DNA of 64,000 bases from Escherichia coli. Lineage in GTDB: Bacteria > Pseudomonadota > Gammaproteobacteria > Enterobacterales > Enterobacteriaceae. A model generated the notes under the pieces. The model made no database searches. It saw only the letters and a list, made by a program, of their open reading frames with translations, and was not told the origin of the DNA. The stretch lies in assembly GCF_045037415.1 (NCBI RefSeq), contig NZ_CP173438.1; one strand, written 5' to 3'. Shown one piece after another: positions 36,718-37,882 of the stretch (its first letter is position 1; each line of letters opens with the position of its first letter). A program made the translations under genes and the position numbers.

Positions 36718-36978
36718 TTAAATTTTATCCGCGTGGTGCATCAGCACAAATTTATCCCACAACTGTTCTTCCGTCTCGACATGTTGCGGATCTTTCACAA
36801 TAGTATTGGGGATCGGACACACCTTCTGGCAGGTTGGTGTCTCGTAGTGCCCTACGCATTCGGTACACTTATCGCTGTTAATCTCGTAGATATGTTCACC
36901 CATCGAAATCGCCTCATTCGGGCATTCGGGTTCACACATATCACAATTGATGCATTTTTTAGTGATTAACAGCGCCAT
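36718..36978 (-). CDS. yfhL: 4Fe-4S dicluster ferredoxin YfhL
   Basis: Track ORF 36718..37002; internal Met ([20 protein letters not shown]) gives 86 aa with two CxxCxxCxxxCP motifs. Confidence 0.9.
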
Positions 36979-37033
36979 AAGGAAACTCTCAAAACAACAC
37001 AAACCGGGCGGGCATTATACGCGCATTCTTTAC

Positions 37034-37882
37034 TCAGACCAGTTTTTTCACCAGCGCTTCGCTATGACGAATACGTTCTGGTGCCAGTTCCAGATCCTGC
37101 TGAATCAGCGCAATGAACAGCAAATCCGTTAACATTCCCTGCGCGTGACAAGCAGAGATTGAAGCACTGTTTGTCGCTTGTTCTTCGGCAATGGTATACA
37201 GGCAATGAGAAGCACGCTGTTGCAGGGCATTGGGAGTAAAGCCGGTAATCGCCAGCACTTTTCCGCCCACTCGCAGCATCTCATCTGCCGCCAGGTTTAA
37301 CTCGCGCCGTACACCGGTGTAGGAAATGGCTAATAACAGATCGTCAGGGGACGACGCCTGTACGGTAGCGAGTAGCGCATGCATATCGCGCACTGCGGCA
37401 GCATTGAAGCCAATCTTCATCAGCTTCCAGGCAAAGTTTTGCGCCACCAGACCCGAAGCGCCAATACCGGTCAGAATTATCCGCCGCGCAGAGCGCAACA
37501 TTGCCACGCATTCATGCAGTTTCTCTTCACTATTAACGTTTAACGTTGCGTACATAGCGGCAGTATTTTCTTTAATCAGTTTTTCGCCGACCAGCCGTAA
37601 CGGATCATCACCGCGGATTTGGTTATGAATGGGCACGGAGGGAGATTCCGGCTGGCTTGCCAGCGCTTCACTCAACGCCAACTTTAGTGCCGGAAAACCT
37701 TTATAGCCGAGTTTTTGCGCGAACTTCACGACGCTGGACTGACTGACTCCGGCTTCGTTGGCCAGTTGCTGAGAGCTTAAATGGCGCGCCGTATCAGGTT
37801 GTAGCAGCAGATAATCCGCCAGTTTTTTATCACTCTGGGCAAGCCCCTGGTAACGCTGACGGATACGAAGTAAGCCGTTCAT
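37034..37882 (-). CDS. yfhH: RpiR/MurR-family transcriptional regulator (HTH plus SIS domain) YfhH
   Basis: Track ORF 37034..37954; start at MNGLLRIRQRYQGL gives 282 aa. Confidence 0.88.
   Translation of the reverse strand: MNGLLRIRQRYQGLAQSDKKLADYLLLQPDTARHLSSQQLANEAGVSQSSVVKFAQKLGYKGFPALKLALSEALASQPESPSVPIHNQIRGDDPLRLVGEKLIKENTAAMYATLNVNSEEKLHECVAMLRSARRIILTGIGASGLVAQNFAWKLMKIGFNAAAVRDMHALLATVQASSPDDLLLAISYTGVRRELNLAADEMLRVGGKVLAITGFTPNALQQRASHCLYTIAEEQATNSASISACHAQGMLTDLLFIALIQQDLELAPERIRHSEALVKKLV

What the first reader, a model, noticed from the sequence alone, without database searches (positions are those of the whole stretch)
36718..37882. Uncharacterised two-gene unit: RpiR/SIS regulator yfhH with the small 2x[4Fe-4S] ferredoxin yfhL
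A sugar-phosphate-sensing type regulator and a standalone ferredoxin are encoded back to back on the minus strand with a 55-nt gap, next to the shoB toxin locus. Neither gene has an assigned physiological role, and the pairing of a SIS-domain regulator with an electron carrier is unexplained.
Basis: partly seen in the sequence, partly recalled or inferred. Interest (0 to 1): 0.25.

Follow-up and report, generated by a model that had tools for sequence, protein, structure and literature searches.

The report
Orphaned MurR-like regulator beside ferredoxin
Two annotated E. coli genes, a sugar-phosphate-sensing repressor (yfhH) and a small iron-sulfur electron carrier (yfhL), appear to be neighbours by history rather than shared function: the repressor's partner genes for recycling a cell-wall sugar were deleted from E. 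coli but survive next to it in related bacteria.

Summary
yfhL (36718-36978) and yfhH (37034-37882) lie in tandem on the minus strand, 55 nt apart, in a core E. coli locus.

They do not behave as a conserved functional pair.
- In 40 of 80 Enterobacteriaceae species, and in Serratia and Erwinia, yfhH faces a divergent operon. It encodes a MurNAc-6-phosphate etherase (a MurQ paralogue) and a MurP-like PTS EIIBC transporter.
- Escherichia lost this operon by a deletion of about 2.15 kb. The scar is in the window: the last ~100 nt of the PTS gene abut pgpC, and the two conserved inverted-repeat boxes I read as YfhH operators (GAATTTTTAATTC, GAATATAAAATTC) survive.
- YfhH keeps the MurNAc-6-P contact residues of its paralogue MurR.
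- yfhH is still under strong purifying selection (dN/dS about 0.01).
- yfhL is a structurally solved, very-low-potential 2[4Fe-4S] ferredoxin. It has its own conserved -10 element (GCGTATAATGCCCGCCC) in the gap.
- That element stays with yfhL when other genes separate it from yfhH (Klebsiella oxytoca group, Erwinia) or when yfhH is not at the locus (Pectobacterium).
- yfhL's constant neighbour is acpS.

Read-through from yfhH is not excluded, because no terminator was found. What the orphaned YfhH now controls is open. Interest is low to moderate.

The parts
36718..36978 (-). yfhL: 86-aa 2[4Fe-4S] ferredoxin of the Allochromatium vinosum ('Alvin') type. It has C9xxC12xxC15xxxC19P and C37xxC40-x8-C49xxxC53P motifs and a C-terminal extension.
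   Evidence: ORF. NCBIfam NF033683, 136 bits against a cutoff of 86. PDB 2ZVS, E 1e-56. The cysteine motifs are read directly from the translation.
37006..37019 (-). Putative yfhL promoter core inside the 55-nt gap. It has a perfect -10 TATAAT (37019->37014) followed by a G+C-rich discriminator GCCCGCCC. The weak -35 region overlaps the yfhH stop codon.
   Evidence: Read from the sequence. The string GCGTATAATGCCCGCCC is nearly invariant about 37 nt upstream of the yfhL ATG. It persists where the upstream DNA differs (L045, L057, L059, L061, L075, L080). A related, more diverged form persists where yfhH is not adjacent (Pectobacterium L083 GGGTATAATCTGCGCCC; Erwinia L086 GCGTATAATACCCGCGC). 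The consensus scanner missed it because the -35 is weak. No transcription start was mapped here.
37034..37882 (-). yfhH: 282-aa RpiR/MurR-family regulator (N-terminal HTH_6, C-terminal SIS). It is a paralogue of MurR (36% identity).
   Evidence: MurNAc-6-P contact residues are retained (with controls). dN/dS is 0.011-0.016 within Escherichia.
37939..37951 (.). Box 2: inverted repeat GAATATAAAATTC (as read on the minus strand). It lies about 57-69 nt upstream of the yfhH start codon and overlaps promoter-like hexamers on both strands. Predicted YfhH operator.
   Evidence: Exact pattern match. PWM score 21.5 bits. Conserved across most of the 81 distinct upstream sequences examined. Promoter-like hits at 37970->37941 (-) and 37922-37950 (+). 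Binding was not tested.
37971..37983 (.). Box 1: inverted repeat GAATTTTTAATTC, 32 bp from box 2. In relatives it sits immediately upstream of the ribosome-binding site of the divergent etherase gene. Predicted YfhH operator.
   Evidence: (22.3 bits). In 65 of 81 distinct upstream sequences two boxes lie 32-33 bp apart.
37989..38087 (+). Deletion scar: remnant of the 3' end (from about codon 416) of a MurP-like PTS EIIBC gene. It is fused directly to box 1. It carries a further 22-nt internal deletion, and the old stop codon TAA is now TAT (38085-38087). The old C-terminal codons GAGGAG now serve only as the pgpC Shine-Dalgarno sequence.
   Evidence: tblastn matches 'LAMMRSIVAGKVMIYLLGYVVAKI' to PTS residues 417-440. 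blastn gives 92-98% identity over 38003-38051 to Citrobacter PTS genes.
38091..38726 (+). pgpC (yfhB), context gene. In relatives it starts 3 nt after the PTS gene's stop codon. In E. coli it now lies directly downstream of the relic divergent promoter/operator region.
   Evidence: (TIGR01545, 447 bits).
36044..36525 (.). ohsC (36044-36120, -) and shoB (36445-36525, +) type I toxin-antitoxin locus. Among the loci examined it sits between acpS and yfhL only in Escherichia.
   Evidence: Rfam RF02495, 101 bits. RefSeq annotation. In many other genera acpS ends only 2-8 nt from yfhL, and ShoB was found only in Escherichia loci.

Best explanation
The pair is two independent functions brought together by descent and gene loss.

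yfhH encodes a paralogue of the MurNAc-6-phosphate-responsive repressor MurR. Its ancestral job, still visible in Citrobacter, Enterobacter, Salmonella, Serratia, Erwinia and others, is to control itself and a divergently transcribed operon. It would do so through two inverted-repeat operators 32-33 bp apart. The operon encodes a MurNAc-6-P etherase (a MurQ paralogue) and a MurP-like PTS EIIBC transporter. Induction is probably by MurNAc-6-P or a very close analogue bound in the SIS domain.

In the Escherichia lineage a deletion of about 2.15 kb removed the etherase gene and most of the PTS gene. E. coli has the separate murR-murQP locus, so the lost operon was probably redundant. The regulator, its promoter and both operators were kept and remain under strong purifying selection. 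YfhH therefore still does something in E. coli: at least autoregulation, and possibly control of whatever the relic promoters now read into (pgpC-tadA on one side, yfhL by read-through on the other).

yfhL encodes a very-low-potential Alvin-type 2[4Fe-4S] ferredoxin. It is probably transcribed mainly from its own promoter in the 55-nt gap, and its conserved neighbour is acpS.

Shown here: gene identities, the deletion scar, operator and promoter conservation, synteny, and selection. Inferred: the ligand, repression at the two boxes, redundancy as the cause of the loss, and activity of the yfhL promoter.
For: - Partner operon: in 40 of 80 species-level Enterobacteriaceae loci, yfhH faces a 2.4-kb divergent etherase + PTS EIIBC pair. 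Seven more keep the etherase only. The same module lies next to yfhH in Serratia and Erwinia.
- Etherase identity: it passes the MurQ equivalog TIGR00274 (421 bits, cutoff 302), is 55% identical to K-12 MurQ, and keeps Glu83 and Glu114.
- Transporter identity: the PTS protein is MurP-like, at 339 bits and 38% identity.
- Deletion scar in the window.
- Operators: two boxes score 21.5 and 22.3 bits. They are the only strong sites in 64 kb and are conserved even in lineages that lost the operon.
- Ligand pocket: of the 8 MurR residues that hydrogen-bond MurNAc-6-P (PMC9177960), YfhH keeps 6 identical, including the lactyl-binding Lys159 and His171. The other 2 are conservative changes (G->A, a backbone contact; K->R). 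HexR and AlsR do not share this set.
- Selection: dN/dS of yfhH within Escherichia is 0.011-0.016 at dS 0.6-0.86.
- yfhL promoter: its -10 and discriminator are conserved regardless of the upstream gene.
- Synteny: yfhH and yfhL are split by a sulfatase gene (Serratia), a Wzy_C gene on the other strand (Erwinia), or 3.2 kb carrying an oxidoreductase, an MFS transporter and a LysR regulator (K. oxytoca group). yfhL sits beside acpS with no yfhH at the locus in Pectobacterium and Providencia.
- Redundancy: MurR proper is patchy. It occurs in two Citrobacter species whose yfhH-linked operon is partly or wholly lost.
- Literature: the genomic context of this ferredoxin family is not conserved, and the P. 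aeruginosa gene is monocistronic (PMC2984482).
Against: - No experiment here shows YfhH binding to the boxes or to MurNAc-6-P.
- The PTS protein scores below the MurP equivalog cutoff (339 against 516), so the transported sugar may differ from MurNAc.
- The yfhH-yfhL spacer is 46-62 nt in 64 of 77 measurable loci, and neither a terminator nor a stable structure lies in it. Co-transcription is therefore likely to some degree, and a regulatory link to yfhL cannot be excluded.
- Strong purifying selection on an orphaned regulator means it has a present-day target that this account does not identify.
- The yfhL promoter is inferred from conservation, not from a mapped transcription start.
- The survey was seeded with close YfhH relatives plus four yfhL loci, and one representative genome stands for each species.
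Confidence: 0.7

Rival explanations
1. One reading: yfhH-yfhL is a genuine operon in which the SIS-domain regulator couples a sugar-phosphate signal to expression of the ferredoxin.
For: Both genes are on the same strand, 55 nt apart. No terminator or stable hairpin lies between them. The spacer length is conserved in 64 of 77 measurable loci. The orphaned yfhH is still under strong selection, so it needs a target. Two plant-colonisation papers cite an NsrR (NO-sensing Fe-S regulator) binding site at yfhH, which would fit a redox theme, but this is second-hand.
Against: yfhL has its own conserved -10 element, which stays with yfhL when the upstream DNA changes. Unrelated genes, one of them on the opposite strand, separate the two genes in Serratia, Erwinia and the K. 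oxytoca group, among others. yfhL is present with no yfhH at the locus in Pectobacterium and Providencia, and the family is reported across Proteobacteria with variable context. No YfhH box lies in the gap. The spacer conservation is what vertical inheritance among close genera would give anyway.
Confidence: 0.12
2. Rewiring: after the deletion, the relic divergent (former etherase) promoter and the two YfhH operators came to face pgpC-tadA. On this reading YfhH now modulates phosphatidylglycerophosphatase C and/or the essential tRNA deaminase in response to a cell-wall-turnover signal.
For: In relatives the PTS gene's stop codon is 3 nt from the pgpC start, and the PTS C-terminal codons form the pgpC Shine-Dalgarno sequence. 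pgpC was therefore probably already fed by this operon's transcription. In E. coli box 1 is about 107 nt from the pgpC start codon, and a promoter-like site on the + strand overlaps box 2. Holoenzyme SELEX peaks were reported in the yfhB-yfhH spacer (PMC5493296). A PgpC link has been speculated before (PMC6055005). Purifying selection on yfhH persists in lineages that lost the operon.
Against: There are no expression data. tadA is essential, so it cannot depend on an inducible promoter alone. Keeping both boxes is equally explained by autoregulation. Lineages whose deletions have different end points show no common architecture upstream of pgpC.
Confidence: 0.12
3. Back-up or cross-talk regulator: YfhH is retained in E. 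coli because it co-regulates the surviving murR-murQP locus, or other amino-sugar recycling genes, together with MurR.
For: The recognition helices are almost identical: SQSSIVKFAQKLG in MurR and SQSSVVKFAQKLG in YfhH. The ligand pocket is shared. MurNAc-6-P is still made in E. coli through MurP. A weak box-like site, GGGATATATGATTCC, lies in the murR-murQ spacer.
Against: That site scores only 6.5 bits, against about 22 bits for the cognate boxes. The published MurR work needs no second regulator. I could not scan the rest of the E. coli genome for boxes.
Confidence: 0.06

Closest known systems
E. coli MurR-murQP system (MurNAc-6-P-responsive RpiR-family repressor with a divergent etherase/PTS operon; Jaeger & Mayer 2008 as cited in PMC9177960; structures 7EN5-7EN7)
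   Same: Same domain architecture (HTH_6 + SIS). Near-identical recognition helix. 6 of 8 direct MurNAc-6-P contacts are identical and 2 are conservative. In relatives the layout is the same: the regulator is divergent from an etherase gene followed by a PTS EIIBC gene, with two adjacent repeats in the spacer.
   Different: Only 36% identical to MurR. Fails the MurR equivalog model (171 bits, cutoff 408). Its operator motif (GAAT-N5-ATTC) scores poorly in the murR-murQ spacer. The linked PTS is only 38% identical to MurP. In E. coli the target operon itself is gone.
Alvin-type very-low-potential 2[4Fe-4S] ferredoxins (Allochromatium vinosum Fd 1BLU; P. aeruginosa Fdx 2FGO; E. coli YfhL 2ZVS)
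   Same: YfhL is a member. It has the two-cluster motif with the 8-residue insertion in the second motif and the C-terminal extension. Reported potentials are -675 and -418 mV (PMC12047441). The family's genomic context is variable and the P. aeruginosa gene is monocistronic (PMC2984482).
   Different: The gene is essential in P. aeruginosa, whereas a yfhL deletion strain of E. coli is viable (PMC12047441). Its native partner enzymes in E. coli are still unknown. Here it happens to lie downstream of a regulator gene.
Other E. coli RpiR-family regulators (AlsR/RpiR, HexR/YebK)
   Same: HTH_6 + SIS architecture, and sugar-phosphate sensing through conserved Ser/Thr phosphate-binding residues.
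   Different: Their sugar-specific pocket residues differ from those of MurR and YfhH: R/V/H/T and R/H/H/T against K/H/Y/K(R). Their target genes are also different.

Membership tests
RpiR/MurR family of transcription regulators | N-terminal HTH_6 DNA-binding domain plus C-terminal SIS sugar-phosphate-binding domain | tested here: met
   Pfam PF01418 (105 bits, residues 1-77) and PF01380 (112 bits, residues 128-258).
MurR proper (NCBIfam NF012026 equivalog) | Score above the curated equivalog cutoff | tested here: not met
   171 bits against a cutoff of 408; 36% identity to K-12 MurR. YfhH instead passes its own equivalog NF008590 (571 bits, cutoff 355).
MurR-like regulatory system | Divergently transcribed MurNAc-6-P etherase and PTS EIIBC genes next to the regulator | tested here: not met
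   Absent from the window, where only a ~100-nt remnant of the PTS gene is left. Present next to the yfhH orthologue in 40 of 80 Enterobacteriaceae loci and in Serratia and Erwinia.
MurR-like regulatory system | Two adjacent repeat operators in the divergent spacer | tested here: inconclusive
   Two conserved inverted repeats 32 bp apart are present (37939-37951 and 37971-37983). Protein binding was not tested.
MurR-like regulatory system | MurNAc-6-P binding pocket (MurR G145, S146, K159, H171, S190, Y191, S192, K195) | tested here: inconclusive
   YfhH has A, S, K, H, S, Y, T, R at these positions: 6 identical and 2 conservative. HexR and AlsR differ at the sugar-specific positions. Binding itself cannot be tested with these tools.
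YfhL / Alvin-type 2[4Fe-4S] ferredoxin family | Equivalog score, two Cys motifs with an insertion in the second, and a C-terminal extension | tested here: met
   NF033683, 136 bits against a cutoff of 86. PDB 2ZVS E 1e-56; 1BLU E 1e-26. CxxCxxCxxxCP and CxxC-x8-CxxxCP are read from the translation.
Operon (single transcription unit yfhH-yfhL) | Same strand, short gap, no intervening terminator | tested here: met
   55-nt gap. No terminator-like site in the gap. The fold is no more stable than shuffled sequence (z = 0.21).
Operon (single transcription unit yfhH-yfhL) | No independent promoter for the downstream gene | tested here: not met
   A perfect TATAAT with a conserved flank lies in the gap. 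It is kept upstream of yfhL even where yfhH is not the upstream gene. This rests on sequence only; the transcription start was not mapped.
Operon (single transcription unit yfhH-yfhL) | Adjacency conserved beyond close relatives | tested here: not met
   The genes are separated in 13 of 77 Enterobacteriaceae loci and in Serratia and Erwinia. yfhL has no yfhH at the locus in Pectobacterium and Providencia.

The most novel reading that the evidence does not exclude
YfhH has been kept under very strong purifying selection since Escherichia lost its cognate etherase/PTS operon. It may have been rewired so that a peptidoglycan-turnover signal (MurNAc-6-P) now tunes the genes its two relic promoters read into. 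Those are pgpC-tadA (phospholipid synthesis and essential tRNA editing) on one side and, by read-through, the very-low-potential ferredoxin YfhL on the other.
Probability: 0.15. Interest if true: 0.5.

Novelty: new member of a known kind. Interest (0 to 1): 0.27.

Why it matters
This gives one of the last uncharacterised E. coli transcription factors a concrete, testable identity. YfhH would be a MurR paralogue with a predicted operator, a predicted ligand class and an ancestral regulon that can be studied directly in Salmonella, Citrobacter or Enterobacter. It explains why looking for its targets next to the gene in E. coli K-12 is uninformative. It also removes a misleading guilt-by-association clue about the native role of the YfhL ferredoxin, which has recently attracted interest as an electron donor for engineered nitrogenase systems. 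Finally, it is a clear example of a regulator that outlives its operon, which raises the question of what keeps it under selection.

Tried and rejected
- Promoter scan: the consensus scan of 36000-38300 did not report the gap promoter, because it needs 4 of 6 matches in the -35 hexamer. I found the -10 by reading the sequence and by conservation.
- Rfam scan of 35500-38500 at E <= 1: only ohsC and sub-threshold noise, all between 36002 and 36165. Nothing in the yfhH-yfhL gap or the yfhH-pgpC spacer.
- RNA fold of the gap: no structure beyond shuffled controls.
- Junction alignment: a global alignment with cheap gaps scattered into meaningless fragments. I replaced it with separate MAFFT alignments of each flank.
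- pgpC/tadA promoter idea: I considered that the invariant block inside the PTS 3' end is the pgpC/tadA promoter that constrained the deletion end point. I did not adopt this. The block is missing from the Klebsiella/Pluralibacter group, Serratia and Erwinia, and I found no convincing sigma-70, sigma-E or sigma-32 match by eye.
- Cross-regulation of murQP: the best box-like site in the murR-murQ spacer scores only 6.5 bits.
- Literature: a search for b2561/b2562 returned only irrelevant papers. The primary NsrR ChIP paper is not held. No paper in the library links yfhH to murQ.
- Not attempted: structure prediction and fold search, because a solved YfhL structure and MurR SIS-domain structures already answer the fold question.

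Full report
**Observation**

The window is E. coli chromosome. Positions 36000-38200 are 100% identical to strain SK1144, and 5425 of 5426 complete E. coli genomes hold a match. The local gene order is:
- era, recO, pdxJ, acpS (+)
- ohsC (-) and shoB (+)
- yfhL (-) and yfhH (-)
- pgpC and tadA (+)
- mltF (-)
- purL

yfhL is 36718-36978 and yfhH is 37034-37882, both on the minus strand and 55 nt apart. YfhH has HTH_6 and SIS domains and passes its own NCBIfam equivalog, NF008590. YfhL passes the YfhL-family equivalog and matches the solved structure 2ZVS at E 1e-56.

**What is already known**

In the searchable literature YfhH appears only in lists of uncharacterised regulators (PMC4797297, PMC9308461). 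One paper speculates on a link to its neighbour PgpC (PMC6055005).

YfhL is better known:
- It belongs to the Allochromatium vinosum type of very-low-potential 2[4Fe-4S] ferredoxins.
- The family is reported as almost confined to Proteobacteria, and its genomic context is 'not conserved'.
- The P. aeruginosa gene is monocistronic and essential (PMC2984482).
- E. coli YfhL has reported potentials of -675 and -418 mV. It is needed in vivo for a heterologous NifH/NifEN system to fix N2 (PMC12047441).

**Comparative anatomy of the yfhH side**

A scan of one genome per species returned 80 loci encoding YfhH at 75-100% identity. All are labelled Enterobacteriaceae except one mislabelled record. I mapped the neighbouring genes by tblastn.

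In 40 loci there are about 2.4 kb between pgpC and yfhH. This holds two genes transcribed divergently from yfhH:
- The first passes the MurNAc-6-P etherase equivalog TIGR00274 (421 bits, cutoff 302). It is 55% identical to K-12 MurQ and keeps Glu83 and Glu114. That these two are the catalytic residues is from my own recollection of the MurQ literature.
- The second is a PTS EIIBC protein closest to MurP, at 339 bits (below the 516 cutoff) and 38% identity.

Seven more loci keep the etherase only. S. enterica subsp. arizonae, for example, has a decayed PTS gene. Twenty-nine loci have neither gene. These include all five Escherichia loci and the Klebsiella/Raoultella, Pluralibacter, Trabulsiella, Yokenella and Pseudocitrobacter loci. 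Four loci are cut off by contig ends and could not be classed.

The same module (PTS, etherase, divergent yfhH) occurs in Serratia and Erwinia. In Erwinia it lies directly after pgpC. The module is therefore ancestral, and its absences are losses.

**The deletion scar in the window**

The 208-nt yfhH-pgpC spacer (37883-38090) is a composite.
- The half nearest yfhH aligns with the yfhH-etherase spacer of other genera, up to and including box 1.
- Homology stops at about 37988. In relatives that is just before the etherase ribosome-binding site.
- Homology resumes inside the PTS gene at about codon 416.
- Positions 38003-38051 are 92-98% identical to Citrobacter PTS genes.
- The remnant has a further 22-nt deletion, and its stop codon TAA is now TAT.
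- The former C-terminal codons GAGGAG survive as the pgpC Shine-Dalgarno sequence.

About 2.15 kb was lost. The same scar is present in E. albertii and the other Escherichia loci, so the deletion predates their divergence.

**Predicted operators**

Upstream of yfhH there are two inverted repeats, GAATTTTTAATTC (37971-37983) and GAATATAAAATTC (37939-37951).
- Their starts are 32-33 bp apart in 65 of 81 distinct upstream sequences. This includes the lineages that lost the operon.
- A matrix built from them scores 22.3 and 21.5 bits at these two sites. The next best site in the 64-kb window scores 13.0 bits.
- Box 2 overlaps promoter-like hexamers on both strands.
- In relatives box 1 abuts the etherase ribosome-binding site.

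This is the layout described for MurR, which binds two neighbouring repeats in the murR-murQ spacer and represses both directions (PMC9177960). Binding by YfhH is inferred, not shown.

**Predicted ligand**

MurR contacts MurNAc-6-P directly through G145, S146, K159, H171, S190, Y191, S192 and K195. K159 reads the lactyl group that distinguishes MurNAc-6-P from GlcNAc-6-P (PMC9177960). E. coli YfhH has A, S, K, H, S, Y, T and R at these positions, and the pattern holds in orthologues from six other genera.

| Protein | K159 | H171 | Y191 | K195 |
|---|---|---|---|---|
| MurR | K | H | Y | K |
| YfhH | K | H | Y | R |
| HexR/YebK | R | V | H | T |
| AlsR | R | H | H | T |

The other two E. coli family members therefore differ at the sugar-specific positions. 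This supports MurNAc-6-P or a close analogue as the effector. The divergent PTS leaves the exact imported sugar open.

**Is the orphan still functional?**

Within Escherichia, yfhH has dN/dS of 0.011-0.016 at dS 0.6-0.86. That is as constrained as its neighbours, including the essential tadA. Between two other operon-less genera, Raoultella and K. oxytoca, the ratio is 0.024. YfhH therefore still has a selected function after losing its operon. What that function is remains the real open question.

MurR proper is patchily distributed. Proteins named MurR and at least 74% identical to K-12 MurR turn up in E. coli, some Salmonella, K. aerogenes, Serratia ficaria and two Citrobacter species. Those two Citrobacter species are among the loci where the yfhH-linked operon is partly lost (C. 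sedlakii, L015) or wholly lost (Citrobacter sp. Awk 4, L025). This fits loss through redundancy, but it is anecdotal.

**The yfhL side**

The 55-nt gap contains a perfect TATAAT (37019->37014 on the minus strand) followed by GCCCGCCC. The string GCGTATAATGCCCGCCC lies about 37 nt upstream of the yfhL start in nearly all loci. It stays with yfhL in three situations:
- when 3.2 kb carrying an oxidoreductase, an MFS transporter and a LysR regulator is inserted after yfhH (K. oxytoca group, Phytobacter massiliensis);
- when the upstream gene is on the other strand (Erwinia, in a diverged form);
- when yfhH is not at the locus (Pectobacterium, in a diverged form).

In Pectobacterium, Serratia, Providencia and Erwinia the constant neighbour of yfhL is acpS. 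In many Enterobacteriaceae acpS ends only 2-8 nt from yfhL. The roughly 690-bp ohsC/shoB region is present only in the Escherichia loci.

Against full independence, no terminator or stable structure lies in the gap. Some read-through from the yfhH promoter into yfhL is therefore likely.

**Verdict**

An ancestral layout of pgpC, then PTS and etherase divergent from yfhH, then yfhL convergent with acpS, was trimmed in Escherichia by loss of the operon. That left a MurR-like regulator next to an independently promoted ferredoxin.

I put about 0.7 on this account. About 0.12 goes to a real regulatory yfhH-yfhL unit, about 0.12 to rewiring onto pgpC-tadA, and the rest to cross-talk with murQP.

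The genes themselves are known and annotated. The new content is the assignment of YfhH to a MurR-type module, its predicted operator and ligand, and the deletion scar. No paper in the searchable library links yfhH to murQ. I cannot exclude that curated databases or papers outside that library already note it.

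Noticed in passing
window 38009-38040 (and the 3' end of the PTS gene in L007-L080): A 32-nt block, CCGGAAAAGTGATGNTCTATCTGTTAGGCTAT, inside the PTS gene's 3' end is nearly invariant, including at third codon positions, across 40 species with an intact gene. It is retained in four lineages with independent partial deletions (Escherichia, L025, L064, L072). It is absent from the Klebsiella/Pluralibacter group, Serratia and Erwinia. It may be an embedded expression signal for pgpC-tadA. I found no convincing promoter match.
   Followed up: partly
window 37993-38130 (+): A 45-codon ORF (MMRSIVAGKVMIYLLGYVVAKI...) starts just after box 1. It runs through the PTS remnant and overlaps the pgpC start in another frame. 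It is a relic hydrophobic reading frame that sits directly downstream of the former etherase promoter. Whether it is translated is unknown.
   Followed up: no
window 37006-37013 (-): The putative yfhL promoter has a G+C-rich discriminator (GCCCGCCC) right after the -10 element. From general knowledge, this feature is typical of promoters under negative stringent (ppGpp/DksA) control. Published reporter data say that expression of the gene rises along the growth curve (PMC2984482), which seems at odds with that.
   Followed up: no
window 36711-36727: The third-best match to the YfhH box matrix (13.0 bits, CAGAATATTAAATTTTA) overlaps the yfhL stop codon. It is probably a chance match in A+T-rich DNA.
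   Followed up: no
window 37937-37990 (yfhH upstream region): [quoted passage not shown] 2009, and report yfhH induced along with NsrR-regulon genes. By my recollection of the NsrR consensus, box 1 with its flanks (ATGAATTAAAAATTC) resembles a half-palindromic NsrR site. The primary paper is not held, so this is unverified.
   Followed up: partly
window 36024-36717: The ohsC/shoB toxin-antitoxin region between acpS and yfhL is present only in the Escherichia loci. In many other Enterobacteriaceae acpS and yfhL are convergent and 2-8 nt apart. The yfhH-yfhL pair has therefore been remodelled on both flanks in Escherichia.
   Followed up: partly
window 36718-36978 (yfhL): yfhL is reported as the chromosomal insertion site of Stx2b prophages in some O112:H8 STEC strains (PMC12029490). 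This may account for some of the 166 E. coli genomes in which the 2.2-kb query is not covered contiguously.
   Followed up: no
L026 (CACSKA010000009.1): This record is titled 'Chryseobacterium sp. 18061'. It carries a typical Enterobacteriaceae mltF-tadA-pgpC-yfhH-yfhL-acpS locus that closely resembles the 'Citrobacter sp. 18056' record from the same study (L022). It is probably a mislabelled or contaminated assembly.
   Followed up: no
L083-L086 and PMC2984482: In Enterobacterales this ferredoxin gene is consistently next to acpS, which uses CoA to make holo-ACP. In P. aeruginosa and several other bacteria it is next to coaD, a CoA-synthesis gene. So it recurs beside phosphopantetheine/CoA genes in distant lineages. 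The authors of PMC2984482 dismissed a functional link for coaD.
   Followed up: no
L064 and L072, between pgpC and yfhH: Kosakonia quasisacchari and Enterobacter sp. Bisph1 have about 1.57 kb of different, unexamined content in place of the etherase/PTS pair. They keep both boxes and the 3' PTS block.
   Followed up: no
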